Source: Mustelus asterias
Taxonomy: Eukaryota
NCBI RefSeq assembly: GCF_964213995.1
Contig: NW_027590205.1
Span: 620,001 to 684,000, forward strand
Length of the DNA: 64,000 nt
Direction of reading: 5' to 3'
Below, in pieces: positions 2,582 to 46,583 of the stretch (position 1 is its first letter; each line of letters opens with the position of its first letter). Position numbers and translations under genes: made by a program. Under the pieces are notes generated by a model. That model searched no databases. It worked only from the letters and a program-made list of their open reading frames with translations, and was not told the origin of the DNA.

Positions 2582-3592
2582 TCACTTGTGAACTCGCTGG
2601 TGTCTCTGCAGGGAGGATGAAACAGTGAATCTCTTTCCACAGACAGAGCAGATGAATGATCTCTCCCCAGTGTGAACTCGCTGATATCTTTGCAGGTTGG
2701 ATGCTGTTCTAAATCTCTTTGTGCAGTGAGAGCAGCTGAACGGTCGCTCCTCAGTGTGAATGCGTTGGTGGACCATCAGTTCCTGAGAGCTTTTGAAGTT
2801 GCTCCCACACTCAGAGCATTTAAAGGGTCTCTCCTGGGTGTGAGTGACTGTGTGCGTCGACAGGGCAGATGACTGAGTGAATCCCTTCCCGCACACAGAG
2901 CAGGTAAATGGTTTCTTCCCAGTGTGAACTCGCTGGTGAACCTGCAAGTGTGATGACGTTCTAAACCTCTTTGTGCAGTGAGAGCAGCTGAACGGTCTCT
3001 CCCCGGTGTGAATGCGCTTGTGGACCCTCAGATCTGAAACATGTTTGAAGGCACTCCCACACTCAGAGCATTTAAAGTGTCTCTCACTTGTGTGAGTGAC
3101 TTTGTGACTTAGCAAGTGGGATAACTGAGTGAATCCCATTCCACACATACAGCAGGTAAATGGCTTCTCTCCGGTGTGAACTTGCTGGTGTGTCCACAGG
3201 TTGGATGACGTTCTAAATCTCTTTGTGCAGTGAGAGCAGCTGAACGGTCTCTCCTCAGTGTGAATGCGCTGGTGGGACACCAGTTCTCCAGAGCTTTTGA
3301 ATCCACTCCCACAGTCAGAGCATTTAAAGGGTCTCTCATTGGTGTGAGTGAAATTGTGACTCAGCAGGTGGGATAACTGAGTGAATCCTTTCCCACAGTC
3401 AGAACAGGTAAATAGTCTCTCCCCCGTGTGAACTCGCTGGTGTCTCTGCAGATTAGGTAAGTCAGTGAATCCCTTCCCACACACAGAGCAGGTGAATGGT
3501 TTCTCCCCAGTGTGACTGCGTTGATGAACTTCCAACCGAGATGGGACCGTGAATCCCTTCCCACAGTCTCCACATTTCCATGGTTTCTCCAT
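2582..3592 (-). CDS. C2H2 zinc-finger protein ZF-A, 336 aa, 12 fingers (finger 11 His>Tyr), no effector domain
   Basis: Open frame of 12 x 28-aa CxxC..HxxxH units with TGEKP-type linkers. The first true ATG is at 3592 in accATGg context; the ORF-track start at 3628 is TTG. Confidence 0.9.
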   Translation of the reverse strand: MEKPWKCGDCGKGFTVPSRLEVHQRSHTGEKPFTCSVCGKGFTDLPNLQRHQRVHTGERLFTCSDCGKGFTQLSHLLSHNFTHTNERPFKCSDCGSGFKSSGELVSHQRIHTEERPFSCSHCTKRFRTSSNLWTHQQVHTGEKPFTCCMCGMGFTQLSHLLSHKVTHTSERHFKCSECGSAFKHVSDLRVHKRIHTGERPFSCSHCTKRFRTSSHLQVHQRVHTGKKPFTCSVCGKGFTQSSALSTHTVTHTQERPFKCSECGSNFKSSQELMVHQRIHTEERPFSCSHCTKRFRTASNLQRYQRVHTGERSFICSVCGKRFTVSSSLQRHQRVHK

Positions 3593-4487
3593 GGTGTGGG
3601 TGTCCTTGTGACTCTCCAGGTTAAACAATCAGTTAAATCTCACACAGAACGTGGGTACAGTCTCTCCCCGCTGTGAATTCTGTGATGTATTTTCAGGCTG
3701 TGTAACTGGTTAAAGCTCTTTCCACACTCAGTGCACTGGAACACTCTCACTCGGGTGTGTGTGTGCCTTGGTGCTTTTTCAGTTGCACTGATGCTTAAAA
3801 TCTCTTGAAACAGACAGCTGAGAGAAACATTTCTCCCTCTGGATTTAAAGGCCGATGATATTCAGGTCCCGATGAATTGAGTGATTCTGTCAGATGTTGA
3901 TGTGACGTTTGGTTTGAGATTTCTGTCTGTAAATCCTCACCTTCTGATATTGTAAAAGGAGTTTACAAAAGTCATCAATGTCAGTACAGGATATAAATTC
4001 AGAACAGACAATTCTAGTTTCTATGGAACATTCTTTTCTCTCTCATTCCTCAAAGCTGTAAATCTCCATCCCACACACTCTCCCTCCATTCTCACTCTGC
4101 TGTATCTAATATTCACCCTCCCAATTCTCCTGAAGGTGCTGATTGAGGCTGATTGACAGATCCATGCTCACTGCTTCCTGTCCTGGACACAGAGAGCTGG
4201 AAATCTCCATGCAGGCGGCCAGACAGATATATGTCTATCTGACTGGACTAACAATGTGTGGAATGTACAGACTGGACTCCCTTCCTTCCCTTCAGCGGCT
4301 AAGGGCGGCCAAGTCGCCAGGACCCAATGAACTGCACACTAGGCTGAAGAGATAGTGGACACTTTGGTTAAAATATTTTGTAACTCGCTAAATTCCAGGA
4401 GGATATTAGAAGATTGGAAAACAGCCAATGTGACTCCTTTGTTCAAAAAGGGAGAAAGGCAGAAGGCAGTGAACTATAGACCTGTTT

Positions 4488-4771
4488 ATAGAATCATAGA
4501 ATCTACAGAACAGGAGGAGGCCATTTGGCCCATCGAGCCTGCACCAACAACAATCCCAGCCAGGTCCTATCCCTCCTAATCTGCCGACACTAAGGGGCGA
4601 TTCATCATGGCCAATCAACCTCACCCTCACTTCTTTGGAATGAGGTAGGAAATCGGAGCACGCAGAGGAAACCCACGCAAGCACGGGGAGAACGTGCAAA
4701 CTCCACAAGTCCATGGCACTGTGGGGCAGCAGTGCCAACCACTGTGCCACCAAGCCGCCCCGTGCTGCCCC
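4488..4771 (-). mobile_element. HE1-type tRNA-derived SINE
   Basis: Head GGTGGCACAGTGGTT, body GGTTTCCTC..TGCTCC, ATTCTATG tail, all on the minus strand. Confidence 0.85.
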
Positions 4772-4902
4772 AGTGAATTTAACACCTAGTCAATATGGTT
4801 TTATGAAAGATAAATCATGTTTGACAAATTTGTTCAAATTCTTTGAGGATGCAAGGGGTCGTGTAGATCGAGAGTAATCTGTAGATGTAGTGTATTTACA
4901 TA

Positions 4903-5228
4903 GGGTGGCACAGTGGTTAGCACTGCTGCTGCACAGCGCCAGGGACAAGGGTTCAATTCCAGCCTTGGGTGACCGTCTGTGTGGAGTCTGCACATTCTCC
5001 CCATGTCTGTGTGGGTTTCCTCCGAGTGCTCCAGTTTCTTCCCATAGTCCAAAGATGTGCAGGTTAGGTTGATTGGCCATGCTGAATTATCCCTTTGTGT
5101 CCCAATAGATTTAGATTAGGGGGACTAGTGGGGAAAAAATGTGGGCTTATGGGATGGGGCCTGGGAAAGATGTTCAAGCTGCTCGATGGGCCAAATGACC
5201 CCCTTCTGCACTCTAGGGATTCTATGAT
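4903..5228 (+). mobile_element. HE1-type SINE
   Basis: A-box GGTGGCACAGTGGTTAG, B-box GGTTCAATTCC, tail GGATTCTATGATT. Confidence 0.9.
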
Positions 5229-7040
5229 TTCCAAAAAGCATTTGTCAAGGTGCCACATAAGAGGCTGGTGCATAAAGTAAAGGCCCATGGAATTGGTGCA
5301 AATGTGTTAGCATGGATTGAAAACTGGCCGTCACATAGAAAACAGAGAGTTGGAATAAATGGGTCATTTTCAGAGTGGAAAGATGTAACTAGTGGAGTAT
5401 CACAGGGATCAGTTCTTGGCCCGCAATTCATGATTCAATTAATGACCTGGAGAAGGAACAGAATGTAAGGTTTCCAAATGATATGAAGATAAGTGAAAGG
5501 ACATGTTGTGATGAGGATATTTTGATTCTGCAGTGGGATATAGATAGATTGGGTGACGAAAACCTGGCAAATGGACTTTACTGTGGGGAAATGTGAGGTC
5601 CTGTATTTCACTAGGAAGAATCAAAAGGGAGATTATTTACATGGAGAGGCACTGCAGGTGAGTGAAGTACAGAGGGATCGAGGTGTTTTGCACATGAATC
5701 ACAAAAAGCTGGCAGGCAGGTCCCACAATACGTAAGAAGGAAAATGGAATTTTGACCTTTATCGCAAAGGGGTTGGAGTTTAAAAACAGGGAGGTTTTGT
5801 GGCAACTGCACAGGGTGTTGGTGAGGTCTCACCTGGAATAATGCACACAGTTTTGATCCGCTTATTTAAACAAGGATATAGTAAGATTGGAGGTTCACCA
5901 GGTTAATTCCTGGGATGAGAGGGTTGTCCGATCAAGAGAGAATAAATGTCGAGGTCTGTATTCCTTGAAGCTTGAAAGATAAACATAGAACATAGAACAG
6001 TACAGCACAGAACAGGCCCTTCGGCCCTCGATATGCCGAGCTTTGTCCGAAACCAAGATCAAGCTCGCCCACTCCCTATCATCCTGGTGTGCTCCATGTG
6101 CCTATCCAATAACCGCTTGAAAGTTCCTAAAGTGTCCGACTCCACTATCACAGCAGGCAGTCCATTCCACACCCCAACCACTCTCTGAGTAAAGAACCTA
6201 CCTCGGACATCCCTCCTATATCTCCCATCATGAACCTTATAGTTATGCCCCCTAGTAACAGCTACATCCACCCGAGGAAATAGTCTCTGAATGTCCACTC
6301 TATCTATCCCCCTCATCATCTTATAAACCTCTATTAAGTCGCCTCTCATCCCCCTCCACTCTAAAGAGAAAAGCCCTAGCTCCCTCAAACTTTCCTCATA
6401 AGACCTACCCTCCAAACCAGGCAGCATCCTGGTAAATCTCCTTTGCACTCTTTCCAGCGCTTCCACATCCTTCTTATAGTGAGGTAACCAGAACTGCACA
6501 CAATATTCCAAATGTGGTCTCACCAAGGTCCTGTACAGTTGCAGTATAAGCCCACAGCTCTTCAAACTCAAACCCCCTGTTAATAAACGCTAACACACTA
6601 AAGGCCTTCTTCACAGCTCTATCCACTTGAGTGGCAACCTTCAGAGGTCTGTGGATATGAACCCCAAGATCTCTCTGTTCCTCCACATTCCTCAGAACCC
6701 TGCCGTTGACACTGTAATCCACATTCAAATTTGTCCTACCAAAATGAATCATCTCGCACTTATCCGGGTTAAACTCCATTTGCCATTTTTCAGCCCAGCT
6801 CTGCATCCTATCAATGTCTCTTTGCGGCCTACAACAGCCCTCCACCTCATCCACTACTCCACCAATTTTGGTGTCATCAGCAAATTTACTGACCCACGCT
6901 TCAGCCCCCTCCTCCAAGTCATTGATAAAAATCACAAATAGCAGAGGACCCAGCACTGATCCCTGTGGTACACCGCTGGTAACTGGTCTCCAGTCTGAAA
7001 ATTTTCCATCCACCACCACCCTCTGTCTTCTATGAGATAG

Positions 7041-9138: not shown

Positions 9139-9179
9139 TTCCTGGAGACTCCAGTCCAATCCGGGAGAGTTGGTCACTG

Positions 9180-9545
9180 GGTCAGGCTCACAGCGCATGC
9201 GCCCTTCTGTACATTGTTCCTGTAAAGATGGCGGCCGCTAACCCGGGCCTGGAGCCGCTCAGCTCCGACTCTATTCAGTACCAATTGAAGCGGGACCGGG
9301 AACATTTTATTCTGGATTGAAGCCTTTAGGGGATATTTATGAAGCCTCCCAGCCCACTCCGCTGCTTCTATCCCTCCCCGGTCACCCAGCGGCTCCATTG
9401 CTGAACCTCACTCCATTGTTTCTTTTCGGCTCCTCGCAGCTCCAGTCACAGTCCGGACTGCGCATGCTCCGGTCAGAGCCAGGTACCGCGTTTGCGCAAG
9501 GCGGTGCCGTAATGTGGATAGGGCACCTTCTCACCCGCAGAGAAT
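9180..9545. promoter_or_regulatory. CpG-rich promoter, probably for ZF-A
   Basis: NRF1 GCGCATGCGC 9193-9202, YY1 AAGATGGCGGC 9225-9235, second NRF1-like site ~9459, local CpG enrichment. Confidence 0.7.
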
Positions 9546-9694
9546 GTTGGGTAATCACCCCGCCATTCACACTGGTTTTGTTTAATAGAAAATATGGTTT
9601 GCGATCTGAACATGATTGGTACCATTGGGCCACAATAACAAATGTATTAAATCGATTGATATGGAACTAAGGACTGATATAGTAACTAAGGACT

Positions 9695-11520: not shown

Positions 11521-11573
11521 TACTTGATTTCTCCAGGATTAATTGATTGATTAATTTTTTTTAATTTTTTATT

Positions 11574-14405: not shown

Positions 14406-15443
14406 TTACTTGTGGCCTTGCTGGTGTCTCAGCAGATGGGATGACTGAGTGAATCCCCTCCCACACACAGAGCAGGAGAACGGTTTCTCCCCGGTGTGAA
14501 TGCGCCGGTGTTTCAGCAGATTGGATGAGTGATTGAATCCCTTCCCACACACAGAGCAGGTGAGCGGCCTCTCCCCAGTGTGAATTCTCTGGTGTACGGT
14601 GAGCTGAGATGATTTCCTGAACCCAGTCCCATAACGAGAGCATCTGAACGGTCTCTCGTCAGCGTGAATACGTTGATGGGTCACCAGTTCCCCAGAACTT
14701 TTAAAGCACTTCCCACAATCCAGGCATTTAAATGGTCTCTCGTCAGAGTGAACCCGTTGATGGGATGTCAGTTCCACAGAACTTTTAAAGCACTTCTCAC
14801 AGTTCAGGCATTTAAAAGGTCTCTCATCAGTGTGAACTCGCTGATGTTTCAGTAGGTGAGATGACTGAGTGAATCCCTTCCCACACACAGAGCAGGTAAA
14901 TGGTTTCTCCCCAGTGTGGATTCGCTGGTGTTTCAGCAGATCAGATAACTGAATGAATCCATTCCCACACTCGGAGCAGGTAAATGATCTCTCTCCAGTG
15001 TGAATTCGCTGATGTGTCATCAGGTGGGATGACTGAGTGAATCCCTTCCAACACACAGAGCAGGTGAATGGCCTTTCCCCAGTGTGACCACGTTGGTGTC
15101 CTAACAGATTGGATAACTGAGTGAATCCCTTCCCACACTCAGAACATGTGAATGGTCTCTCCCCATTGTGATCTCGCTGGTGTTTTAGCAGACTGGATGA
15201 CTGAGTGAATCCCTTCCCACACTGAGGGCAGGTGAATGGTCTCTCCCCAATGTGACTGCGTCGATGAGTTTCCAGGTCAGATGGATAACTAAACGCTTTC
15301 CCACAATCCCCACATTTCCACAGCTTCTCCCCAGTGTGACTGTGCTTGTGTCTCGACAGGCCAGATGATCGACTGAAGCCTCGTCCACACACACAACACG
15401 TGTATGGTTTCTCCTCACTGTGAACAGTGCTTTTTCCTTCCAT
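14406..15443 (-). CDS. C2H2 zinc-finger protein ZF-B, 345 aa, 12 fingers (finger 10 Cys>Tyr)
   Basis: Open frame from aacATGg, splice acceptor tttcacag at 15553, AATAAA near 14283. Confidence 0.9.
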
Positions 15444-15810
15444 GTTTAATATTAAATGATATTCAAGTTACGATAAATGATACACCTCTGTCAGCTCCTG
15501 GTGTGATGTTTGGTTTCAGTTTCCTGACTGTAAATCCTCCTCTTCTAAAACCCTGTGAAATTGATTTAAAACAAAAAAACAGGAGTGAGAGAGAACCCAC
15601 AAAAACACAAAGACAGCTTGTGAAATTGAGCTGAATGAATCTGGTCATTTGTCTGATACTAATGAACAGTGCTGGATTATCATAAAAACCCAGCTGATTC
15701 ACTAATGTCCATCAGGGAAAGGAAACTACCACCCAGTCTGGGTCTGTACAGACTCAGGCCTCTACTTAAGGAGAGTTCAAGACAGTGGGAGAGAATGGGG
15801 AGTGATGCAA

Positions 15811-17886: not shown

Positions 17887-19630
17887 AGAGAACATAGAAC
17901 AGTACAGCACAGAACAGGCCCTTCGGCCCACGATGTTGTGCCGAGCTTTATCTGAAACCAAGATCAAGCTATCCCACTCCCTATCATCCTGGTGTGCTCC
18001 ATGTGCCTATCCAATAACCGCTTAAATGTTCCTAAAGTGTCTGACTCCACTATCACTGCAGGCAGTCCATTCCACACCCCAACCACTCTGTGCGTAAAGA
18101 ACCTACCTCTGATATCCTTCCTGTATCTCCCACCACGAACCCTATAGTTATGCCCCCTTGTAATAGCTCCATCCACCCGAGGAAATAGTCTTTGAACGTT
18201 CACTCTATCTATCCCCTTCATCATTTTATAAACCTCTATTAAGTCTTCCCTCAGCCTCCTCCGCTCCAGAGAGAACAGCCCTAGCTCCCGCAACCTTTCC
18301 TCATAAGACCTACCCTCCAAACCAGGCAGCATCCTGGTAAATCTCCTCACTCTCTCCAGCGCTTCCACATCCTTCCTATAGTGAGGTGACCAGAACTGCA
18401 CACAATACTCCAAATGTGGTCTCACCAAGGTCCTGTACAGTTGCAGCATAACCCCACGGCTCTTAAACTCCAACCCCCTGTTAATAAAAGCTAACACACT
18501 ATAGGCCTTCTTCACAGCTCTATCCACTTGACTGGCAACCTTTAGAGATCTGTGGATATGGACCCCAAGATCTCTCTGTTCCTCCACAGTCTTCAGAACC
18601 CTACCTTTGACCCTGTAATCCACATTTAAATTTGTCCTACCAAAATGAATCACCTCACATTTATCAGGGTTAAACTCCATTTGCCATTTTTCAGCCCAGC
18701 TTTGCATCCTATCTATGTCTCTTTGCAGCCTACAACAGCCCTCCACCTCATCCACTACTCCACCAATCTTGGTGTCATCAGCAAATTTACTGATCCACCC
18801 TTCAGCCCCCTCCTCCAAGTTATTAATAAAAATCACAAAGAGCAGAGGACCAAGCACTGATCCCTGCGGCACTCCACTAGCAACCTGCCTCCAATCCAAA
18901 AATTTTCCATCGACCACCACCCTCTGTCTTCGATCAGACAGCCAGTTACCTATCCAATCGGCCAACTTTCCCTCTATCCCACACCTCCTCACTTTCATCA
19001 TAAGCCGCCCATGGGGGACCTTATCAAACGCCTTACTAAAATCCATGTATTGACATCAACTGCCCTACCTTCATCAACACACTTAGTTACCTCTTCAAAA
19101 AATTCTATCAAATTTGTGAGGCACAACTTGCCCTTCACGAATCCATGCTGATTATCCCGGATTAATCCGCATCTTTCTAAATGGTCGTAAATCCCATCTC
19201 TAAGGACCTTTTCCATCAATTTACCAACCACTGAAGTAAGACTAACCGGTCTATAATTACCAGGGTCATTTCTATTCCCTTTCTTAAACAGAGGAACAAC
19301 ATTCGCCATTCTCCAGTCCTCTGGCACCAGCCCCGTGGACAGCGAGGATCCAAAGATCAAAGCCAAAGGCTCTGCAATCTCATCCCTTGCCTCCCAAAGA
19401 ATCCTAGGATATATTTCATCAGGCCCAGGGGACTTATCGACCTTCAGTTTATTCAAAACTGCCAGGACATCCTCCCTCCGAACATCTGTTTCCTCCAGCC
19501 TATTAGCCTGCAACACCTTCTCTTCCTCAAAAACATGGCCCCTCTCCTTGGTGAACACTGAAGAAAAGTATTCATTCATCACCTCGCCTATCTCTACTGA
19601 CTCCATACACAAGTTCCCACTACTGTCCTT
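17887..19630 (-). mobile_element. Young 5'-truncated CR1/HER1 LINE (1.75 kb)
   Basis: ORF2 pieces 18998-19612 and 17964-19046 separated by one frameshift, GTTCTAT tail, near-identical to 27049-30435. Confidence 0.95.
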
Positions 19631-20185: not shown

Positions 20186-20697
20186 TCAATAACTGGGGAA
20201 TCTGCCTCCAGAAGACTTGTGAACTCGCTGGTGTCTCATTAGGTTTTGTGACTGAGTGAATCTGTTCCCACATATGGAGCAGGTGAACGGCCTCTCCCCG
20301 GTGTGAACTCGCTGGTGTATCAGGAGATCAGATGAGTTAGTGAATCCCTTCCCACACACGGAGCAGGTGAAAGGCCTTTCCCCAGTGTGAGCACGCTTGT
20401 GTTTCAGCAGGTGAGATGAACTGCTGAATCCCTTCATACACACAGAGCAGGTGAATGGCTGCTCCCCAGTGTGAAGTCGCTGGTGAGTGTGAAGGTTGAA
20501 CATTCGACTAAAACTCTTCCCACACACGGTGCAGATGAACAGACTCTTCCCAGTGTGGCTGCACTGATGAGCTTCCAGCTGGGATGGAGAACTGAATTCC
20601 TTCCCACAGTCCCCACATTCCCATGGGTTCTCTATGGTGTAGATGTCCTCGTGTCTCTCCAGGTTGGATGATTTAATGTGTGTATATTTCAAATATC
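20186..20697 (-). CDS. C2H2 zinc-finger exon ZF-C, 5 fingers; start codon uncertain (possible pseudogene)
   Basis: Open frame from the acceptor (tttgacag, 20698). The family start ACC-ATG-GAG is ACC-ATA-GAG here and most of the leader is deleted. Confidence 0.65.
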
Positions 20698-21559
20698 CTG
20701 TCAAAGGAGTTTAGAAACATCATCACTATCAATACAAGATAGAAATTCAGAACAGACATTTCTACTTTCTGTGGAACATCGTTTCCTCACTTGTTCCTGT
20801 AAAGCAGTAAATCCTCATCCTGAACACTTTCCCACCTCCCTGTCCTGCAACCAACTCCCACATTGAACAACCATCTCATATTTCATTGATTGTCCCATGT
20901 TTGAGTCCAGTGTGCCAGGCTGCATGGCGTATGGGTGCTGTTTCACCCATAAGATGGATCTGTGCAGCACCCTCTTCCAACTGTTCTGGCTGCCAACCAG
21001 CCCATGCCCACCCACACAGTTCCAGCAGCACCGCACACAATACTGCTCACCTGCTCTAACAGACTCGTGAAGAATGTCCTTTCATTTTCTCAGAGAGAGT
21101 TGGTCAGCCTGGCAAACCCAGTGTGAAATATCTTCACAAATCTTTTCTCCCACTCTCTATTCTGGCTGGGTTCAGTTCTTTTGTACAGAGTCAAAATAAA
21201 ATCAATCAATTATTTTCTCTCCTGGTCACTGCTGGGAGCTGCAGCTTTTTACTGGGGGTGTTGGGGACTCCAGCGGGTGTTTGTGAATCCTCCCCGCCCA
21301 CCTCCCAGGGTTTCCTTCCTTCCCAGAGATCAGAGTCCTCATTGATTTGAGGCCAAAGTGTAACCTCTTATTTATTGTCCCCCTCCCCCATCCTCTGATG
21401 TGAACCATCCTCCAGTGGCTGAGCCAGGATGGGGCCGTTAACCTGGGCCTGTTCCCGGGAGGGAGGGAGGGAGGGAGAAGCCCCGCAGCTGCAAACCAGG
21501 GAGCTGACAATGATTCTGAAGGGTTTGCGGATCCACAAAGTGTTTCCAAATCCTCCCAG

Positions 21560-22120
21560 CCACCGCCTAACGCTGACTCCGCTTCTCCGGGACAAAGGAC
21601 TCTCGCTCCCGAGGCGAACAAAGGAATTGCGCATGCTCCACATTCAGACAGAGTGTCCCGCATGATCAGCCAGACCGGACTGCGCATGTGCCAGATCGTG
21701 ATGCCCCGGGGAGGGTGATTGACAGCGGCTCCGGACCAATACGAGGGGCGGGTCTGGATGACGCGGTGGGGGTGGTGGGTGGGGGGGTTGGTCCTCCAAC
21801 CAATCAGGGTGAAAAAGGGGCTCCAACTGACGCATGCGCATTGCGGGTAATGGCGACGGCAAAGGCTTCCTGCTTCGGATCCGTAATTTGTCAGCGGAAA
21901 ATCGCCGATCGGTGGGTACGATGGAACCGGCGAGTGGACGGGAAGGCTTCAGAAACCGGTTGTGCGATCTGTAAACTCCCCCCAAAATTCTCCAATTACC
22001 CCATTTGCATCGAGCGGGTCAAAGATCCCTGAGATCGGCCCACGCGTTAACGACCTCCATCTTTATTGGGGGCAATGTGCGGCAGTGCGCATGGGTGATC
22101 GCCATCTTTGTAGGGGGCAA
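21560..22120. promoter_or_regulatory. CpG-island bidirectional promoter between ZF-C and ZF-D
   Basis: Four NRF1-like GCGCATG sites (e.g. 21831-21840), YY1 GCCATCTTT 22101-22109, GC box ~21745, CCAAT ~21736 and ~21800. Genes diverge on both sides. Confidence 0.75.
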
Positions 22121-22229
22121 TATTGTCAATGACTGGGAGGAGCGGGTTCCCCATTGTTCAGAATGGAGACAACTTGTCCATCAAACTGCATCAACCCTCT
22201 GAGTCCCAATGTCTTATTGATGAGGCAGA

Positions 22230-23270: not shown

Positions 23271-23797
23271 CTAAATGGAGGGAATTTCTGTTCATCCAGT
23301 GCAAGATGTCAGATAAGTCAGGGTGATGTGTGACTTGAAGGGAATTTTGGAGGGATGATGTTCACATACACCTACTACCCTGGTCCTCCTCGGTGCTGGA
23401 GGTTGGTTTATTTGTAAGTAAGTAAAATTCCCTCCCGTCACCCCATGTCGCTCCACTTCTCACCCTCTCCCTCCCCTCCCAGAGAGAAGAGCCTGGTGTC
23501 AGTCCAGAAAAGGTGGTAGGTTCCCATACCAGTGAACCAGTTAAGTTTTTCACAACAATGTCAGTTTTCATGGTCACATTTTTCTCGTATCTGCCCAACA
23601 AATTACCAAATTTGTTCAGCTCGATTTCACAGCCTGATTTTGCGGCTTGTCTCTCATTCCCTTTTCTCTGTTTTGAAATAATTTCACAGGGCAATTGGAA
23701 GGAAGGATTTGCAGTTGGAAAACTCAAACTAAACATCGCATCAGAATCTGATGGAGTCACTCAATTTATCCAAACCTGAAATCATTGTGTTGTAAAC

Positions 23798-24700
23798 ATG
23801 GAAGGAGAAAGTACCATTCACAGTGGGGAGAAAGCGTCCGTGTGTTGTGTGTGTGTGGATGAGGCTTCATCTGATTATAGAACCTGGAGAGACACAGGAC
23901 ACCCACAGCATGGAGAAACTGTGGAAATGTGAGGACTGTGGGAAGGGATTCAGTTACTCAGTTATACTGGAAACTCATCAGTGCGTTCACACTGGGGAGA
24001 GGCCATTTACCTGCACCGAGTGTGGGAAGAGCTTCGTGAATTCAACCAACCTGCTGAGACACCAGCTCGTTCACACTGGGGAGAGGCCGTTCACCTGCAC
24101 TGAATGTGGGAAGGGATTCACTCATTCATCACATCTGTTGAGACACCAACCAGTTCACACCTTTTAAATACACAGACTGTGTGAAGTGCTGCAAAACTTC
24201 TGGGAACTGAAGCACCATCAACATGTTCACACTGACATGAGACCGTTCAGGTGCTCTCATTGTGGGACTGGGTTCACACAATCATCTGACCTCACTGTCC
24301 ACCAGTGGATTCACACTGGGGAGAGGCCACTCACCTGCAAAGAGTGTGGGAAGGGATTTGCTCAGAAGTCCACTCTGCTGACACACCAGTGGATTCACAC
24401 TGGGAAGAGACCATTCACCTGCCCTGAGTGTGGAAAGGGATTCATTAATTCATCCCACCTGCTAACGCACCAGCAGATCCACACTGATGAGACTGAACTG
24501 CGGAAAGTGCAACAAAAGTTCCAGGGAACTGCTGTCCCATCAACAAATCCACACTGACTAGAGACAATTCAAGTGTTGTCATTTTTGGTCTGAGTTCAGG
24601 TAACCTCTTCCCACTGTACACCAGTGCATTGACACTGAGGAGAGAATGTTCACTCCCTCTGAATGTGGGAAGAGAGTCACTCATTCGTCCCATCCGCTGA
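23798..24700 (+). pseudogene. Zinc-finger pseudogene ZF-D (paralog of ZF-B)
   Basis: Frameshift after ATG 23798, 3 intact fingers from ATG 23910 to a stop at 24167, then further fingers in shifted frames. AATAAA ~24848. Confidence 0.8.
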
Positions 24701-25549
24701 GATCCAGTGATTTCAGAAATAACTACATTGATTGTATTTTACTTTTAATCACAACCAGCACTAAATCGCATTCTTTGGGGTCTGTTTCTACTGCTGATGA
24801 TAAACTCCAGGCCAGTTGTATGTTTTTAATCTTCTGGTTAAAAGTTAAATAAATCAGCTTTATGTTAAGCTGAGTGTCAATCTTTTTGATATCTCCAATA
24901 TGTTAGGAGTTTTTGAGAATCTCTGCCCATTCCCTCTTTCCTCCATCCTCACTTCCAATAACAAGTGTAAGCAGCTCATAGAGCTTCTTTAGGATTGAGA
25001 ACATCCAATGAATTACCTCTACTACTTCCAACAGCCCACCAGAAAAATACTGCTTCTAAAGTTCCTCATTGTCTGAGCTCTGAACCTGCATCTTCCTCTG
25101 GGTTCTGTCACCATTTAATTGGGACCATCAGTGGTGGTGTTTTTAACCCAGCATTCCCAATGGTTGAGAGTATCCCCTTTCCACAGCACAGGAGAGCAGT
25201 GGGCAGGCCTGGTTCTATTCTGTGTTTGGAGCATCCGCAGTGTCAGCCATGACTATGAACAGACATTTCTCTCTCGGATCCACGATGGGTAAAAGGTGGG
25301 ATGGCGGGAGGAATGGATTTGGTGGGTGGATAGAGATTCTCTGGAAACCTGTTGTGTAAACTGCAAATCCCAAATGAGAAGTTACTGAATGGACACAAGG
25401 GGAATTATCCCGGTGACAAACCTGGAGCAGGAGGAGAGAATGTTGTGAATTTCTATCCTGGATGGATTTCGGAAACTCCTTTTACAGGGGGTTAGAAGAG
25501 GAGGATTTACACACGGCAATCTCAAACTAAAGAAAGGTTCATCTCTACA

Positions 25550-30000: not shown

Positions 30001-30435
30001 AGTGTCGGTCTTATGAGGAAAGGTTGAGGGAGCTGGGGCTGTTCTCTCTGGAGCGGAGGAGATTGAGGGGAGACTTAATAGAGGTTTATAAAATGATGAA
30101 GGGGATAGATAGAGTGAACGTTCAAAGACTATTTCCTCGGGTGGATGGAGCTATTACAAGGGGGCATAACTATAGGGTTCATGGTGGGAGATATAGGAAG
30201 GATATCAGAGGTAGGTTCTTCACGCAGAGAGTGGTTGGGGTGTGGAATGGACTGCCTGCAGTGATAGTGGAGTCAGACACTTTAGGAACATTTAAGCGGT
30301 TATTGGATAGGCACATGGAGCACACCAGGATGGTAGGGAGTGGGATAGCTTGATCTTGGTTTCAGATGAAGGTCGGCACAACATCGTGGGCCGAAGGGCC
30401 TGTTCTGTGCTGTACTGTTCTATGTTCTATGTTCT
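27049..30435 (+). mobile_element. Young 5'-truncated CR1/HER1 LINE (host of a nested LINE)
   Basis: ORF2 is open on both sides of the nested insert (..SVVGKL | MEKVLRDG..); (GTTCTAT)n tail; TSD AGTTACT 27042-27048 / 30436-30442. Confidence 0.95.
27870..29091 (-). mobile_element. Nested CR1 LINE of a different subfamily
   Basis: 377-aa stop-free RT C-half, (GTTCTTT)n tail, flanking AATT at 27866-27869 / 29092-29095. Confidence 0.95.
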
Positions 30436-30437
30436 AG

Positions 30438-31307
30438 TTACTTGTGAACTCGCTGGTGCCTAAGCTGTGTGGATGAACGACTGAATCTCTTTCCACACAC
30501 TGAGCACGGAAATGGCCTCTCCCTGGTGTGAACTCGCTGGTGTGTCAGCAGGGTGGATGACTGAGTGAATCCCTTCCCACACACTGAGCAGATGAACGGC
30601 CTCTCCCCAGTGTGAACTCGCTGGTGATTAAGTAGGTTGGACATCCAAGTGAAGCCTTTCCCACAGAAAAAGCAGGTGAAGGGTCTCTCCCTGGTGTGAG
30701 TGAGTTGGTGCATCAGCAGATCCGTCTGGCTTTTAAAGCACTTCTCACAGTCAGGACATTTAAACAGTCTCTTATCAGTATGAACAAGTTGGTGTGTCAG
30801 TAGGTCGAATGAACGGGTAAATCCCTTCCCACACACGGAGCAGGGGAACAGTCTCTCCCCAGTGTGAGTGTGTTTGTGGTTCAACAGATCATTTTTCCGT
30901 TTATAGTTTTTCTCACAGTCAGAACATTGGAAAGGTCTCTCCTCACTGTGGATACGAAGGTGTGACAGGAGGTGGGATGAGTTTGTGAAGTCTTTCCCAC
31001 AGACGGAGCAGGTGAATGGTCTCTCCCCAGTGTGAACACGCCGGTGTCTTAGAAGGTGGGATGATTTAGTGAATCCTTTCTGACACACAGAGCAAGTGAA
31101 TGGCCTCTCCCCAGTGTGACTGCGGTGATGAATATGTAATTCAGATGGGTAATCAAATCCCTTCCCACAGTCTCCACATTTCCACGGTTTCTCCCCAGTG
31201 GGACAGCACTTGTGTTTTGACAGGTTTGATGAGCGACTGAAACCTCGTCCACACACAGAACATGTAAACACCTTCTCCCCATTGTGAACGGTGCTTTTTG
31301 ATTCCAT
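30438..31307 (-). CDS. C2H2 zinc-finger protein ZF-E, 289 aa, 10 fingers (first one atypical)
   Basis: Open frame from aacATGg, acceptor ttttacag at 31415. The 3' UTR resumes at 27041. Confidence 0.9.
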
Positions 31308-31836
31308 GTTCAGAAGTCGATGATGTTCAGGCCCTGATGAGTTGGGTGTCTGTCAGATCCTGATGTGATGTTTGATCTGAGTTTCCCACCTACAAATCAT
31401 CCTCTTCCAATATGCTGTAAAATTAATTCAAAAAGGAGAAAAAAACAGTGATAAACACAAAGGTAGGTTGTGAAATTGAGCTGAATGAATCCGGTAATTT
31501 GTGGAGCCGGCACAAGGAAAAAGTGACCACGAAAGCTGCTGGATTGTGATTAAAAACTCAAATGGTTTGCTAATGTCCTTCAATGCAGGAAACCTGCCAC
31601 CCAGTCCAGATCTACACAAGAATTCAACCTTAATGGGAGGAGAAAGATAGAGATGAAACAGGGAGGGAATGAACGGTAAGGACTTTATACATCTGCAACT
31701 GGACAAGAACTTTGACAGAACCTGCCAAACCACAACCTTCACCAACTCAAAGGATGCAGGATAACTATCACCTCCAAATGTCGCTTTCAATCTCAAAACA
31801 ACTTGTAATCGTGAGGTAACCTATAACCTCCTGCAT

Positions 31837-33209: not shown

Positions 33210-33715
33210 TACTGTTCACAAATGAGGAGTTTCGATGGCGTGCGTTTTACCCACCATTCCTCGCGGTGGGGAATGTCCCCTATCCACAGCACGGGAGAGT
33301 TGTGCATGCGCAGTGAAGCAGTGTTTGACGCATGCGTAGCGTGGACGATGGCAATGGAGAAGGACGTTCCTCTGTCTCATCAGCAACCGGTTAGGATGCG
33401 GATACATGGAGGGAGGATTGGAACCAGCAGATGGACGGAGAGGGTTTCTAAATATCTGGTGAAGGTCTCAAACCTCTAAAAGTAACCCGCAGGTTCCGTG
33501 TTTACAGCTTCAGGTCTTTTTCCCGAGACGAGGCGAGGTTAACAGCCGCCATCTTGATTCAGCAGGGAGCGGAGCGAATGCGCTGGTGTCTTGGTGACGC
33601 AACAGTGAGTGGGTGGGGCTTCAGCGTTTTCTGCTCCCGACTGGGTCCTAGTGACCGGATAGCACAGCAGACTGAGTAACAGGTTCTCAACAGCTTCACC
33701 CACTCCCAGGCGGCA
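33210..33715. promoter_or_regulatory. CpG-rich bidirectional promoter between ZF-E and ZF-F
   Basis: NRF1-like TGCATGCGCA 33303-33312 and ACGCATGCGT ~33328, YY1 GCCGCCATCTT 33545-33555. Confidence 0.7.
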
Positions 33716-35775
33716 GCTAATGTTTGCAGCCTCGAGGAATCCATGGGTCATGTATATACTCCAGAAGTTGTTTATTCCTGTTTGGCGCAAGAGTGGTAAG
33801 GGAATTGTGGCCAAGCCATGGCTTACAAGGGAAATTAGAGATAGAATCAGATTCAAGGAAGAAGCATTCAAATTGGCAAGAAAAAGCAATAGATCCGAGG
33901 ATTGGGAGCAGTTTAAAATTCAGCAAAGGAGGACCAAGGGATTGATTAAGAAGGGAAAAATGGAGTATGAAAGGAAGCAAGCAGGGAACATAAAAACTGA
34001 CTGTAAAAGTTTCTATAGATATGTAAAGAGAAAAAGTTTGACAAAAACGAATGTTAGAAACAGGAGAATTCATAACGGGGAATAAAGAAATGGCTGAGGA
34101 ATTAAATTTGTACTTTGCTTCAGTCTTCACAAAGGAAGACGTGAATAATGTACCAGAAGTGCTGAAAGAAACATGTTTTAGTCAGGGGCTGAAGGAAATC
34201 AGCATCAGTTGAGAAGTTTTTGGGGAAATTGATGGGATTGAAGGTGGATAAATCTCCAGGTCCAGATAAGCTTCATCCCAGAGTATCTCAGGAAGTGGTC
34301 CTGGAAATAGTAGATACATTGGTGGTTATTTTCCCAAATTCTTTGGAATCGGTAATAGTTCCGACAGATTGGAGGGTAGCTAATGTAAACCCACTATTCA
34401 AAAAGGGAGGGAGAGAGAAAACAGGGAACTATAGACCAGTGAGCCTAACATTGGTATTGGGGAAGTTGCTGGTGTCTATTATCAAGGATTTCACAACTCG
34501 GCATTTGGAAGGCAGTGGTATAATCAGACAAAGACAGCATGGATTTACAAAAGGGAAATCATGCTTGACGAATCTATTGGAATTTTGTAAGGATGTAAGT
34601 AGTAGAGTTGACCGAGGAAAACCAGTGGATGTGGTTTATTTAGACTTTCAGAAGGCTTTCGACAAGGTCTCACATAACAGACTGCTATGTAACGTTAAAG
34701 GACATGGGATTGCAGGTAATGTCTTGAGATGGATAGAAAGCTGGTTAGCAGATAAGAAGCGAAGAGTTGGCATAAATGAGTCTTTTTCTGAATGGCAGTC
34801 AGTGACTCGTGGGGTTTGTCAGGGATCTGTGCTTGGACCCCAACTCTTCACATTATATATTAATGATTTGGAAGAGGGAACGGAATGTATTATCTCCAAG
34901 TTTGCAGATAATACCAAGTTGGGTGGGAGGGTGAGCTGTGAGGAGGCTGCAGAGATGCTTTAGCGTGATTGGGACTGGCTGAGTGTGTGGGCATCAGCAT
35001 TGCAGATGCAGTATAATGTGGATAAATGTGAGATTATCCACTTTGGTAGCAATAATAGGAAGACAGATTATTACTTGAATAGGTGTAAATTGAGGGAGGT
35101 GTATACTCAACAAGATGTTTGATTCCTCGTGCATCAGTCGCTGAAAGTAAGCGTGCAGGTACAGTAGGCAGTAAAGAAGGCAAATGATATGTAGGCCTTC
35201 ATAGCAAGAGGATTTGAGTATAGGGATAGGGATGTTTTGCTGCAGTTGTATAGGGCGTTGGTGAGGCCACACCTGGAGTATTGTGTACAGTTTTGGTGTC
35301 CTTATCTGAGGAAGGATGTCCTTGTTATAGAGGGAGTGCAGCGAAGGTTTACCAGGCTGATTCCTGGGATGGCAAGTCAGTCATATGAGGAGAAACTAAA
35401 TCGGTTAAGATTATACTCACTGGAGTTTGGAAGAGAGAGAGGGGATCTCATAGAAACTTAAAAATTCTAACACGGTTGGACAGGGTAGATACAGGAAGAA
35501 TGTTCCCAATGGTGGGGGGAGTCCAGAACCCGGGGCATAGCTTGAGGATAAGGGGTAAACCTTTTAGAACTGAGGTGAGGAGAAATTTCTTCACCCAGAG
35601 GGTGATGAATGTGTGGAATTCACTGCCACAGAATATAGATCAAGGGATATGGGGGAACGGGAGTGGGGTGGGGGGGATTAGGATATTGAATTTGATGATC
35701 AACCATGACCATAATGAATGGTGGAGCAAGCTCGAAGGGCTGAATGACCTACCCCCACTTCTAGATTCTATGTTT
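33716..35775 (+). mobile_element. Older CR1 LINE ORF2 (2 kb, several stops)
   Basis: KSPGPD, QHGF..SCLTNL, DFQKAFDKV and KFADNTK motifs. Confidence 0.9.
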
Positions 35776-37672: not shown

Positions 37673-38315
37673 CGAGACTGTCTGGCAGTCTGCATGGAGA
37701 TTTTCAGCTCTCTGTGTCCAGGACAGGAAGCAGTGAGCATGGATCTGTCAATCAGCCTCAATCAGCCCCTTCAGGAGAATTGAGAGGGTGAATATTAGAT
37801 ACAGCAGAGTGAGAATGGAGGGAGAGTGTGTGGAATGGAGATTCACAGCTTTTGGGGAACGAGAGAGGAAAGAATGTTCCATAGAAACGAGAATTGTCTG
37901 TTCTGAATTTCGATTCTGTATTGACAGTGATGGCTTTTGTAAATTCCTTTTACAGGCTATCAGAAGGTGAGGATTTACAGACAGAAATCTTAAACCAAAC
38001 GTCACATCAACATCTGACAGAGTCACTCAATTCAACGGGACCTGAATATCATCGGCCTTTGAATCTAGAAGGAGAAATGTTTTTCTGTTCTGTCTGCTTC
38101 AGGAGATTTTAAACATCAGTGTGACTGGAAAAGCACCGAGACACACACACCAGAGTGAGAGTGTTCCAGTGCATTGCGTGTGGAAAACGCTTCAGTTGCA
38201 CAGCCTGAAAGAACATCGCAGCATTCACAGCGGGGAGAGACTGTACCCGTGTTCTGTGTATGGATGAGGTTTCAACTGATTGTCCGACCTGGAGAGTCAC
38301 AAGGACACCTGCACC

Positions 38316-38906
38316 ATGGAGAAACGGTGGAAATGTGGGGACTGTGGGAAGGGATTTAGATACCCTTCTCACCTGGAAACTCATCGACGCAGTCACACTG
38401 GGGAGAGACCGTTCACCTGTTCTCAGTGTGGGAATGGATTCAGTCGATTATCCACCCTGCAGACACACCAGAGAGTTCACAATGAGGAAAAGCCATTCAT
38501 CTGCTTTCATTGTGGGAAGAGATTCACTCAGTCATCCGCCCTGCAGACACACCAGCGAGTTCACAATGAGGAGAGACCATTCATCTGCTCTCAGTGTGGG
38601 AAGGGATTCAGTCAGTCATCCAGCCTGCGGACACACCAGCGAGTTCACACTAGGGAGAGGCCGTTTACCTGCTCTCAATGTGGGAATGGGTTCACTCAGT
38701 TATCCCATCTGAAGACACACCAACGGTTTCACACTGGGGAGAGGCCGTTCACCTGCCCTCAGTGCGAGAAGGGATTTGCTCAGTTATCCACTCTTCAGAC
38801 ACACCAGCGAGTTCACACCAAGGAGAGACCATTCACCTGCTCTCAGTGTGGGAAAGGATTCACTCAGTTATCCAACCTGCGGAGACACCAGCGAGTTCAC
38901 ATGTGA
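38316..38906 (+). CDS. C2H2 zinc-finger protein ZF-F, 196 aa, 7 fingers
   Basis: accATGg at 38316, 7 canonical fingers, acceptor ttttacag ~37955, decayed fingers upstream. Confidence 0.88.
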
Positions 38907-42860: not shown

Positions 42861-43007
42861 TAAGTCATCTATATCAATTGTAAAATGTTGGAGCCCCAGC
42901 ACTATACCCTGTGACAGCTCTCATTACATTTTGACAACCAGAAAATGACCTACATATGTCGAGTGTTTCCTGCTAGCTTGCCAATCTTCTATCCAAGCCA
43001 ATATGAT

Positions 43008-43303: not shown

Positions 43304-43589
43304 TTGTATGTTATCCCCACAGCTTTTATTTGTTGCAATAACCTTTGATGTGGTACCTTATCAAATGCTATCTGGAAATCTAAGTGCATTAAAATGTACT
43401 TTAGGGAAGGAAATCTGCCATACTTACTGGGCCTGTTCTACATGTGACTCGAGAGCCACAGCAATGTGTTTGACTCGCAAATGTCCTCCAAGGATATCAA
43501 GGGATGGGCAGTAAATGTTACCCCAATAAATGTTGCCCAGCCAGGGACGTGTCCCATGAATGAATAAAAATATGTGGAATGTACAGACT

Positions 43590-43985
43590 GGGGGAACAAT
43601 GGGTGGGGGCGGGGCTCCCGGGTCCGCGCGGCTGAACCCGGAGACGTCACCGCGAAGCAGAGTGATTGCTATTGGCTGATTCAGGCAGGGCTCCATTGTG
43701 CCGTCACAATGACTCAGAGGGGCGTTCCCAGCACACAGTGTCCCATTGGCAGCAATGTCACTGGTTACAGAAGCCGCACACTGCGGATTGGACACCAGCT
43801 CAGCGCGGCTGGCGGTCAAAGCCCCGCCCATCCTCACGTGGGCTCGGGTTCCGCCCTCTCATTGTCTATATGCGGCAGATTGGCCAATGGCAACGTGTGG
43901 AGGACCGGATGGGCGCTGGTCCTCCAGCCAATCAGAGTCCGGGCCTTGTATCAATGACCGCGTGGAGCTTCCTGTGGACCTGAAT
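43590..43985 (+). promoter_or_regulatory. CpG-rich CCAAT/GC-box promoter, probably for ZF-G
   Basis: GC boxes ~43606 and ~43822, GACGTCAC ~43643, CCAAT/ATTGG at 43671, 43745, 43787, 43879, 43884 and 43928. Confidence 0.7.
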
Positions 43986-43989
43986 GTGG

Positions 43990-44865
43990 GGGTTCGATCA
44001 GTAAGTTTGTTGATGATACAAAAATTGGTGGTAAATAGCGAGGAGGAAAGCCTGAGATTACAGGAGGATATGGACGGGCTGGTCAGATGAGCAGAACAGT
44101 GGCAAATGTAATTTAACCCCCTAAAGTCCGAGGTGATGCGTTTTGGGCGGACTAACAAGGCAAGGGAATAGACAATGAACAATAGGACACCAGGAAGTAC
44201 AGAGGACCAGAGGGACCTTGGGGCGCATGTCCATAGGACCCTGAAGACAGTCGGACAAATTGATAAAGTGGTTAAGAAGGATATGGGATACTTGCCTTTT
44301 TTAACCGAGGCATAGAATATTAGAGCAAGCAAGTTATGATTGAGCTGTATAAAAAGCTAGAGTACTGTCTGCAATTCGGGTCGCCACATTTTAGCAAGGA
44401 TGAGATTGCGCTCGAGAAGGTGCAGAGCAGATTCACCAGGATGCTGCCTGGGCTGGAAAGTTTCAGCCATGAAGAGAGGCTGGTTAGGCTCGAATTGTTC
44501 TCCCTAATTCAGAGAAGGCTGAGGGGGGCCTGATTGGGGTGGACAAAAATATGAACCCTTAGTTCAAGTAACTTTAGTCGCTGGGTCAACATCCAGATTT
44601 AAGGTGAGGGGCAGGAGATTTAGAGGTGATTTGAGGGAAAAGATTTTCACCCCAGAGGATTGTGGAATCAGGAACTTGCTGCCTGAAAGGGTGGGAGAGG
44701 TGGGAACGCTCAACATTAAGAAGCATTTAGATGAGCACTTGAAATGGCATCGCTTACAAGGCTACTACTGACCAAATGGTGGAAGGTGGGATTAGAACAG
44801 ATCGATGCTTGAGAGCTGGCACAAATTCGATGGGCCAAAGGGCCTCTTGCTGTGCTTTAAAACTC
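43990..44865 (+). mobile_element. Old CR1 LINE 3' fragment
   Basis: Degenerate RFTRMLPGL..RRLRG motifs with stops. Confidence 0.85.
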
Positions 44866-45658
44866 TGAGGACAGAAATATGACCAGTGTTGTTATGTGAT
44901 AAATATCGGATGGTTCTGCAATAAAGTACATTTATTATTATTTCCAGTCTTGTAATATTGTACTGTAGCTCCGTCATATATTTCCAGTCAGAGTCATTAC
45001 AGCACAGGAGGAGTTCATTGGACAACTCCAGTCCCTGCCGAGCAATTCTGTCAGTCTGGAGTGGGTCCCATTCTGTAACCCTGCAGCACCCATCCAATCA
45101 CATTCAAAATTACTGACCATCTCTGCTTGACTCCCCTCACAGGCAGCAAGGTCAAGAACATGACCAATCACAACCCCCTGTATCTTAACCAATTTACAGA
45201 TTTAGGGGAATGAGTGGGGAAAGAATGTTCCTTAGAAACTAGAATTCTAGTTCTGAATTTTGATCCTGTACTGACTGTGATTTCTGCTGCAACTCCTTTA
45301 CAGGATATCAGAAGGTTAAGATCCATAGACGGAAATCCCAAACCAAACATCACATCAAGATCTGACAGTCGCTCAATTCATCTGGACCTCAACATCATCG
45401 ACCTTTGAATCTAGAAGGAGAAATATTTCTCTGTTTTTTCTGCTTCAGAATGTTTAAACATCAGTGTGACTGGAAAGCACCGAGACACAAACACACCAGA
45501 GTGAGAGTGTTCCAGTGCACTGAGTGTGGAAAGAGCTTTAACCAGTTACACAGCCTGAAAATACATCACAGCATTCACAGCGGGGAGAGACTGTACCCAC
45601 GTTCTGTGTGAGATTTAACTGATTGTTTAACCTGGAGAGTCACAAGGACACCCGCATC

Positions 45659-46583
45659 ATGAAGAAACTGTGGAAATGTGGGGACTGTGGGAAGGGATTC
45701 AGGTTCCCATCTCAGCTGGAAACTCATCAATGCAATTACACTGGGGAGCGGCCGTTCACCTGCTCTGTGTGTGGGAAGGAATTCACTCGGTCATCCAATC
45801 TGCTGAGTCACAATCTCACTCATACCAGTGAGAGACCCTTTAAATGCTCTGACTGTGGGACTGGTTTCGAAAGCTCTCGGGATCTGGTGTCCCACCAGCG
45901 CATTCACACTGTGGCGAGACCGTTCAGCTGCTCTCACTGCACAAAGACGTTTAGAAGATCATCCAACCTGCGGAATCACCAACGAGTTCACACGAGGGAG
46001 TGGCCATTCACCTGCTGTGTGTGTGGGAGGGGATGCAGTGATTTATCTAGCTTGCAGTCACAAAGTCAATCACAGCAATGAGCGACCCTTTAAATGCTCT
46101 GACTGCGGGAAAGATTTCAAAAGTTCTCATCAACTGTTGGTCCACCCGCGCATTCACACTGAGGAGAGACCGTTCAGCTGCTCTCACTGCACAAAGAGGT
46201 TTACAACATCAACCTACCTGTGGGAACACCAGCGAGTTCACACCAATGAGCGACCCTTTAAATGCTCTGACTGTGGGAGTGGCTTCAAAAGGTCTCAGGA
46301 TCTGGTGTCCCACCAGCGCATTCACACTGAGGAGCGACTGTTCACCTGCTCTCACTGCACAAAGAGCTTCAGAACTTCATCCAACCTGCGGAAACATGAG
46401 CGAGTTCACACCGGAGTGAAACCGTTCACATGCTCTCTGTGTGGGAAGGGATTCAGTGATTCATGCAACCTGCGAGAACACCAGCGAGTTCACACCGGGG
46501 AGAGGCCATTCACCCGCTCTCAGTGTGGGAAAGGATTTAGTGATTCATCCCTCCTGCTGAGACACCAGCGAATTCACAAGTGA
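45659..46583 (+). pseudogene. Zinc-finger gene ZF-G, 11 fingers, frameshifted in finger 5 (paralog of ZF-A)
   Basis: ATG 45659. A frameshift equivalent to a 2-bp loss at ~46055 moves the array from ORF 45623-46081 to ORF 45828-46583. The last finger has Cys>Arg. Confidence 0.8.

What the first reader, a model, noticed from the sequence alone, without database searches (positions are those of the whole stretch)
2582..46583. Effector-less ('naked') C2H2 arrays: a shark zinc-finger cluster without KRAB
Seen: seven genes/pseudogenes whose predicted proteins are almost purely fingers. They share a [10 protein letters not shown] anchor finger, a common 3' UTR and CpG promoters, and sit in TE-dense DNA. 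Established: tetrapod KRAB-ZNF and cyprinid FiNZ clusters show this birth-and-death pattern and target TEs using an N-terminal domain. Inference: a chondrichthyan parallel acting without a separate effector domain, by steric blocking or by recruiting cofactors through the conserved WKCGDC finger.
Basis: partly seen in the sequence, partly recalled or inferred. Interest (0 to 1): 0.7.

Follow-up and report, generated by a model that had tools for sequence, protein, structure and literature searches.

The report
Finger-only shark genes beside IgM
Seven copies of a shark zinc-finger gene family with over 1,300 matches in the assembly sit next to an antibody (IgM) gene; the four intact ones start reading right at the fingers with no silencing domain in front, and across the family the predicted DNA-reading residues change fastest, so the proteins likely recognise jumping genes or other repeats, though no target or partner has been shown.

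Summary
The seven C2H2 arrays are real: four intact ORFs, three damaged. 'Naked' holds at DNA level. In 45 of 47 family arrays, stops lie between the conserved splice acceptor and a local start codon, and that leader evolves like non-coding DNA. No effector domain was found in 166 upstream frames; the genome's KRAB hits are tandem PRDM9-like genes elsewhere. The lead-finger pattern has 1,309 exact matches, and the start motifs recur in other sharks. Predicted base-contact residues diverge fastest (pN/pS about 1.5, lower bound about 1.0), as for KRAB-ZNFs. The lead finger is elasmobranch-specific, but its contact residues vary like those of other fingers, so a docking role is unproven. The 'common 3' UTR' is only partly true. 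Special to this window: the field abuts an IgM cluster; 10 of 50 copies of gene 6 lie tail-to-tail with IgM (0.5 expected) and 14 of 20 other IgM copies have arrays close by. RNA contigs settled nothing on splicing; some ray and catshark gene models carry N-terminal extensions. The scan noted this family before in other windows of this genome. New variant of a known kind; TE targeting untested.

The parts
2582..3592 (-). Gene 1 ORF, class B ([10 protein letters not shown]), 336 aa, 11 strict fingers plus one degenerate; homologous acceptor near 3950 has lost its AG
3593..3949 (-). Gene 1 dead leader with fossil fingers and 6 in-frame stops
9150..9550 (.). CpG island with NRF1-like and YY1-like motifs, likely promoter and first exon of gene 1 (inferred)
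14406..15552 (-). Gene 2 terminal exon, class A (acceptor 15552, ATG 15443, [16 protein letters not shown]), 345 aa, 11 fingers; 2 in-frame stops in leader
20186..20697 (-). Gene 3: 5 fingers, ATA in place of ATG; the only window locus whose frame is open from the acceptor; likely pseudogene
21400..22150 (.). CpG island between head-to-head genes 3 and 4, likely bidirectional promoter (inferred)
23690..24720 (+). Gene 4: class A start out of frame, second ATG 23910, stop after 3 fingers, more fingers behind; truncated or pseudogene
30438..31414 (-). Gene 5 terminal exon, class A (ATG 31307), 289 aa, 9 fingers; LINE inserted directly behind the stop
33250..33720 (.). CpG-rich island between head-to-head genes 5 and 6; co-duplicated with gene 6 or gene 5 near other IgM copies
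37956..38906 (+). Gene 6 terminal exon, class B (acceptor 37956, stop 38277, ATG 38316), 196 aa, 7 fingers; 50 close copies in the assembly, under purifying selection
43550..44100 (.). CpG island upstream of gene 7
45304..46583 (+). Gene 7: class B, degenerate lead finger, frameshift near 46060; likely pseudogene
52380..59580 (-). IgM constant region (four C1-set exons, secretory tail, transmembrane exons), tail-to-tail with genes 6 and 7; VH and JH lie 5-10 kb beyond the window end

Best explanation
These are copies of a large elasmobranch C2H2 gene family whose intact reading frames start at a local ATG inside the last exon and encode zinc fingers only, and they likely act as sequence-specific binders of transposons or other repeats, working by occupancy and by partner contacts made through ordinary finger surfaces rather than through a separate silencing domain. 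Shown: stop-blocked, neutrally evolving leader; strong start context; purifying selection on finger structure; fastest change at the canonical base-contact positions; spread by segmental duplication that in part carried IgM clusters along. Inferred: transcription from the CpG islands via a non-coding first exon; DNA binding; TE or repeat targets; any repressive effect. Class B starts appear to have arisen in a finger linker (T-G-E-K-P to T-M-E-K-P) after upstream fingers decayed into 5' UTR (inferred from the fossil fingers).
For: 45 of 47 arrays (5 or more fingers, acceptor located) have an in-frame stop between acceptor and start; acceptor-to-ATG distance mod 3 is 17/16/11; 46 of 50 ATGs have purine at -3 and G at +4. 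In 27 class B genes 112 of 133 leader indels are not multiples of 3 and the first 55 codons have none; 21 of 27 keep a stop 12 codons before the ATG. Leader pN/pS 0.83-0.92 in all frames versus 0.30 for the lead finger. No Pfam family over cut-off except reverse transcriptase in 166 of 173 upstream frames, while a PRDM9-type KRAB exon scored E 1.6e-7 as control. KRAB hits genome-wide: 7 of 8 on one contig; the stretch examined holds SET exons and a PRDM9-type array. 37 proteins matching the leader profile (3 spurious) have no shared domain upstream by inspection. Contact positions pN/pS 1.5 (bootstrap 1.0-2.1) against 0.57-0.65 elsewhere in 20 paralogue pairs. Precedent: finger-only human ZNF146/OZF binds L1 (PMC8896011, passages).
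Against: No transcript shows exon structure. 14 of 17 named chondrichthyan database models have 60-315 residues before the first finger; most look like mis-joined repeats or leader read-through, but two ray paralogues share a related extension and a catshark model has an acidic one joined through the leader, so a domain-bearing subclass may exist. The leader consensus is stop-free in one frame, a weak hint of past coding. The contact-residue interval only reaches 1.0, finger shuffling can inflate it, and the gene 6 subfamily shows purifying selection at contacts (0.40), which does not look like an arms race. ZNF146 loss did not derepress L1 in HEK293 cells (PMC8896011, passages). No binding data.
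Confidence: 0.5

Rival explanations
1. The W/P-marked lead finger is a built-in effector: it docks a corepressor and replaces KRAB, making a true TE-silencing system.
For: Signature (W before the first Cys, P at helix +1) in 8 of 111 fingers of 17 named chondrichthyan proteins, 0 of 1,852 fingers of 206 other named proteins; P+1 S/C+2 fingers occur 89 times at the lead position and 9 times internally among 883 fingers; P17 invariant across 14 aligned shark and ray sequences.
Against: Its contact positions diverge like those of fingers 2-3 and its other positions are not clearly more constrained (0.57 vs 0.65). W replaces a normally buried F/Y and Pro at a helix start is tolerated (general knowledge), so a capping role or retention as the array's edge unit explains it as well.
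Confidence: 0.2
2. The arrays are mainly a chromosomal environment: zinc-finger fields that duplicate with, and shape recombination or chromatin around, antigen-receptor and MHC-like genes, with most copies as passengers.
For: 10 of 50 gene 6 copies lie 10-18 kb tail-to-tail with an IgM CH4 (permutation mean 0.5, max 4 of 5,000); 14 of 20 further IgM copies have arrays 4-14 kb downstream; 1,239 of 1,309 lead-finger matches fall on contig C71 and later-numbered contigs, where all 64 CH4 matches lie. PMC10751288 (passage) notes zinc-finger genes around elasmobranch MHC-Ia-like genes.
Against: Strong purifying selection on finger structure and no frameshifts in coding starts show the proteins matter; 0 of 20 unpaired gene 6 copies had IgM exons 8-18 kb downstream; clusters also exist on large contigs C12, C16, C23 without CH4 matches; gene 6 and IgM distances agree only weakly (Mantel rho 0.31, p 0.051).
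Confidence: 0.15
3. An N-terminal domain exists but is joined by a cryptic acceptor behind the last stop or in a minority isoform.
For: Gene 3 and one other array are open from the acceptor; ray and catshark models with extensions; a few predicted proteins read an island-derived start through the leader.
Against: Only 36 nt separate the conserved stop from the class B ATG; conserved strong ATG context; no shared upstream peptide; no Pfam domain upstream; the acidic exon of the catshark model is single-copy here with no finger array in the 36 kb behind it.
Confidence: 0.1
4. They regulate host genes (for example lymphocyte or developmental genes) rather than transposons.
For: Gene 6 keeps its contact residues across many copies and neighbours IgM.
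Against: Family-wide fast change at contact positions and high turnover fit moving targets better.
Confidence: 0.05

Closest known systems
KRAB zinc-finger genes of lobe-finned fish and tetrapods (PMC10547256, first two of nine parts; PMC11603059, passages)
   Same: Large clustered family; array in one 3' exon with TGEKP-type linkers; birth and death; fastest change at contact residues.
   Different: No KRAB exon; upstream frame blocked by stops; translation start inside the last exon; TE binding and repression not shown.
FiNZ-ZNFs of cyprinid fish (PMC10547256, first two of nine parts)
   Same: Lineage-specific expansion of hundreds of arrays concentrated in a repeat- and immune-gene-rich region.
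   Different: FiNZ is a 28-aa domain on its own coding exon; here no upstream exon can join in frame through the conserved acceptor.
Human ZNF146/OZF and ZNF507 (PMC8896011, passages)
   Same: Finger-only proteins without KRAB; shown there to bind LINE-1.
   Different: Single conserved genes, not a family of over a thousand copies; not required for L1 silencing in HEK293; orthology not tested.
Elasmobranch antigen-receptor complex and MHC region (PMC12227049 section 6 and passages; PMC10751288 passage)
   Same: IgM miniclusters with TCR alpha/delta-type V segments nearby; zinc-finger genes noted around MHC-Ia-like genes.
   Different: No mention of zinc fingers in the main text or 2 supplementary files of PMC12227049; co-duplication of ZNF genes with IgM not found in my searches.

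Membership tests
KRAB-ZNF | N-terminal KRAB domain on an upstream coding exon | tested here: not met
   No KRAB in 166 upstream frames with a positive control; genome KRAB hits are PRDM9-type or weak; frame blocked
KRAB-ZNF | Tandem C2H2 array in a single 3' exon, clustered, with birth and death | tested here: met
KRAB-ZNF | Accelerated change at base-contact residues | tested here: met
   pN/pS 1.5, bootstrap 1.0-2.1, neutral leader baseline about 0.85-0.9; not met in the gene 6 subfamily
KRAB-ZNF | Binds transposons and recruits TRIM28 | not testable with these tools
   No binding or interaction data
FiNZ-ZNF | In-frame 28-aa FiNZ exon upstream of the array | tested here: not met
   All three frames from the acceptor stop before the fingers in 6 of 7 window loci; no FiNZ profile was available to search directly
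FiNZ-ZNF | Represses TEs in early embryos | not testable with these tools
   No expression or knock-down data
PRDM9 | KRAB and SET domains upstream of a near-identical finger array | tested here: not met
   PRDM9-like genes are tandem on contig C20; window fingers are diverse
Finger-only proteins (OZF type) | No domain other than C2H2 fingers | tested here: met
   at DNA level
Finger-only proteins (OZF type) | Orthology to ZNF146 | not tested
   No tree built with human OZF
Finger-only proteins (OZF type) | Full-length transcript lacks upstream coding exon | tested here: inconclusive
   Contigs of four guessed-RNA runs showed no splice joint

The most novel reading that the evidence does not exclude
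Sharks run a KRAB-free transposon-control system of over a thousand finger-only proteins whose W/P-marked lead finger is the corepressor dock, and the duplication-prone fields of these genes are the vehicle that multiplied the shark IgM miniclusters.
Probability: 0.15. Interest if true: 0.8.

Novelty: new variant of a known kind. Interest (0 to 1): 0.52.

Why it matters
Cartilaginous fish lack KRAB-ZNFs, yet carry very many tandem zinc-finger ORFs (475-3,586 in eight species, supplement of PMC10547256). If these proteins police transposons without an effector domain, the arms-race part (a fast-changing array) is older and more general than the silencing module, and the family gives defined constructs to test how bare arrays repress. 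The interspersion with IgM offers a testable route for how sharks came to have dozens of antibody miniclusters.

Tried and rejected
Whole-protein database searches returned mostly unrelated tetrapod ZNFs. The ray N-terminal extension found only itself in the protein database and was not found with this query in the genome. The catshark acidic exon has one match here, not followed by fingers within 36 kb. Read-through or selenocysteine at the conserved TGA codons was considered and rejected: the leader is full of frameshifts. A strongly constrained leader was not supported: its divergence (0.32) matches the upstream intron (0.34); RNA structure itself was not tested. Strict co-descent of gene 6 and IgM was not supported (two clades match, others do not). 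Retroposition was rejected because acceptors and intron flanks travel with the copies. Target prediction from finger sequence was not attempted.
Full report
What is there. A six-frame scan finds seven C2H2 arrays between 2.6 and 46.6 kb. Four have intact ORFs (genes 1, 2, 5, 6; 196-345 aa, 7-11 strict fingers) and three are damaged (gene 3 has ATA for ATG; gene 4 stops after three fingers; gene 7 is frameshifted). Pfam finds only zinc-finger-type families in them. The lead finger is exactly [10 protein letters not shown] in 4 of 7 and a close variant in 3. The 3' UTR is shared by genes 1/6/7 and by 2/4, not by all, and gene 5 has a LINE at its stop. Four CpG-rich islands serve the seven genes, two of them between head-to-head pairs; a conserved island motif occurs 11 times in 1.03 Mb of fetched DNA and 0 times in a shuffle. 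From 52.4 to 59.6 kb lies an IgM constant region on the minus strand, with J and VH just outside the window. The window is from a shark-type genome of 3.68 Gb.

Family size and spread. A degenerate pattern for the lead finger has 1,309 exact matches (reversed control 0); 70 are on contigs C1-C68 and, as the list is ordered by contig, the rest on C71 and later contigs. A class B start motif has 410 matches. Counts include pseudogenes and possibly unpurged alleles, since several copies differ by 0.3% or less. The same starts occur in named database proteins of sawshark, smoothhound and basking shark, and the lead finger also in horn shark, catshark, sevengill, zebra shark and a stingray. The W plus helix-P signature is in 8 of 111 fingers of 17 named chondrichthyan proteins and 0 of 1,852 fingers of 206 other named proteins; 9 unnamed proteins had none.

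Is it really effector-less? I examined 77 arrays in eight regions plus 14 lead fingers in 12 further stretches; regions were chosen around pattern hits, not at random. Of 91, 53 have five or more fingers in one ORF; the acceptor was located in 47 (AG intact in 44). In 45 of 47 at least one in-frame stop lies between acceptor and start; the distance is 17/16/11 across the three phases; 46 of 50 ATGs have strong context. The two exceptions are window gene 3 and one array on C71. Two classes exist: A starts [13 protein letters not shown] about 105-110 nt into the exon; B starts T-M-EKPWKC about 320-390 nt in, behind up to three fossil fingers, and 21 of 27 B genes keep a stop 12 codons before the ATG. 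The leader is non-coding now: 112 of 133 indels are not multiples of three, against no indel in the first 55 codons, and pN/pS is 0.83-0.92 in all frames against 0.30 for the lead finger. Of 173 upstream sense frames of 38 aa or more I scanned 166 (five left out lie in gene 3's finger exon, two in a SINE); only reverse transcriptase passed a Pfam cut-off, while a KRAB control exon scored E 1.6e-7. The genome's KRAB matches are 7 on C20 and 1 weak, stop-containing one on C19; the C20 stretch examined has SET exons and PRDM9-type arrays. A profile of the translated leader matched 37 of 1.84 billion representatives, three of them spurious, and their upstream sequences share no domain by inspection.

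Evidence the other way. No transcript was obtained: no run was on record as RNA and contigs laid on the gene 6 stretch listed no splice joint. 14 of the 17 named chondrichthyan models have 60-315 residues before the first finger. Several are visibly built from LINE, histone or island sequence, but two stingray paralogues share a related extension and one catshark model has an acidic extension read through the leader. Neither was found linked to fingers in this genome. The leader consensus is open in one frame. So the bare state is well supported for this genome, while a domain-bearing ancestor or subclass stays possible.

How the fingers evolve. In 20 nearest-neighbour paralogue pairs (gene 6 family excluded; first three fingers; drawn from 96 unique ORFs) pN/pS is 1.5 at positions -1, 2, 3, 6 for both the lead finger (bootstrap 0.99-2.0) and fingers 2-3 (1.0-2.1), 0.57 and 0.65 at other positions, and 0-0.12 at structural ones, the last partly fixed by my filter for intact fingers. 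Five more divergent pairs gave 2.4. This is the pattern expected of DNA readers chasing changing targets, though finger shuffling can inflate it. The lead finger keeps D, P, S, E and R at 81-96% of 78 genes but varies at -1, 3 and 6; it looks like a reader with a distinctive frame, not yet like a dedicated dock. The gene 6 subfamily differs: 9 pairs give 0.26 overall and 0.40 at contacts, so its specificity is being kept.

The IgM link. Gene 6 has 50 exact-tag copies and IgM CH4 has 64; 10 pairs lie 10-18 kb apart tail-to-tail, against a permutation mean of 0.5 and maximum of 4 in 5,000. Blocks of 3-7 kb with island and gene align at 93-96% beside IgM on C71 and C91. Of 20 other CH4 copies (the first ones in contig order that had no gene 6 partner, some skipped), 14 have a finger array 4-14 kb downstream; genes 5 and 7 also recur beside IgM. 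Against a fixed unit: none of 20 unpaired gene 6 copies had IgM exons 8-18 kb downstream, 19 had other arrays, and gene 6 and IgM distances agree only weakly (rho 0.31, p 0.051; two clades match). IgM clusters thus sit inside zinc-finger fields and are copied with variable pieces of them.

Mechanism. Most likely (0.5): finger-only proteins, transcribed from CpG islands (inferred), translated from the local ATG (inferred from context and selection), binding transposons or other repeats (inferred from the selection pattern and from KRAB-ZNF, FiNZ and OZF precedent) and acting by occupancy and finger-surface contacts. Rivals: lead finger as corepressor dock (0.2), fields as passengers or chromatin environment for immune genes (0.15), hidden domain (0.1), host-gene regulators (0.05).

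Literature. PMC10547256 (first two of nine parts, term search, supplement search with three files unsearched) does not mention sharks in its main text but lists 475-3,586 ZNF ORFs for eight cartilaginous fish. PMC8455134 (passages) reports KRAB-box families lost in cartilaginous fishes. PMC11603059 (passages) names PRDM9 as the only KRAB-type gene in whale shark. PMC8896011 (passages) shows finger-only OZF binding L1 without being needed for silencing. PMC10751288 (one passage) notes zinc-finger genes around MHC-Ia-like genes. PMC12227049 (section 6, passages, two supplements) has no zinc-finger mention. PMC11372145 and PMC10380595 (term searches) added nothing. Nine searches (listings only for the rest) found no description of this family's architecture or of its co-duplication with IgM; subscription journals are mostly not covered. 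NRF1, YY1, Kozak and finger-position labels are recalled. Earlier notes of this scan describe the same family in other windows; they are not independent support.

Verdict. Real, well supported as an anatomy, a new variant of a known kind; function untested. Interest 0.52.

Noticed in passing
window 52380-59580 (minus); G000:C173 about 688,900-690,500: IgM cluster with four C exons, secretory tail and TM exons; J and VH just beyond the window; 64 exact CH4-tag copies in the assembly, none on contigs C1-C70.
   Followed up: yes
G000:C173 about 710,300; C71 about 8,881,900 and 8,889,800; L177, L185: TCR alpha/delta-type V segments next to IgM clusters, as in the published antigen-receptor complex.
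   Followed up: no
G000:C20:1,389,942-1,714,663 (L129-L133, L138-L141): Seven KRAB exons, six spaced about 27 kb apart; the 40 kb examined has SET exons and two finger arrays of 10 and 4 fingers: a tandem PRDM9-like array.
   Followed up: partly
window 17889-19630 and 29034-30432: Young LINE copies 96-99% identical to copies elsewhere; one sits directly behind the stop of gene 5 and is absent from paralogous blocks L181 and L189.
   Followed up: partly
window 37680-37955 and 3950-4230: About 280 nt of intron upstream of class B acceptors is conserved across paralogues and contains a possible short exon with an ATG that would form only a uORF.
   Followed up: partly
window about 8300, 16620, 25460: Orphan acceptor/leader fragments with no finger array behind them: remnants of lost genes.
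   Followed up: no
window 33547 and similar islands: The YY1-like motif contains an ATG on one strand; several predicted shark proteins (P0199, P0221, P0237, P0259) start with MAA, probably from it.
   Followed up: partly
window 1400-2400 and 46600-47730: The 3' flanks of genes 1 and 7 form an inverted pair at about 90-94% identity, marking an inverted segmental duplication.
   Followed up: no
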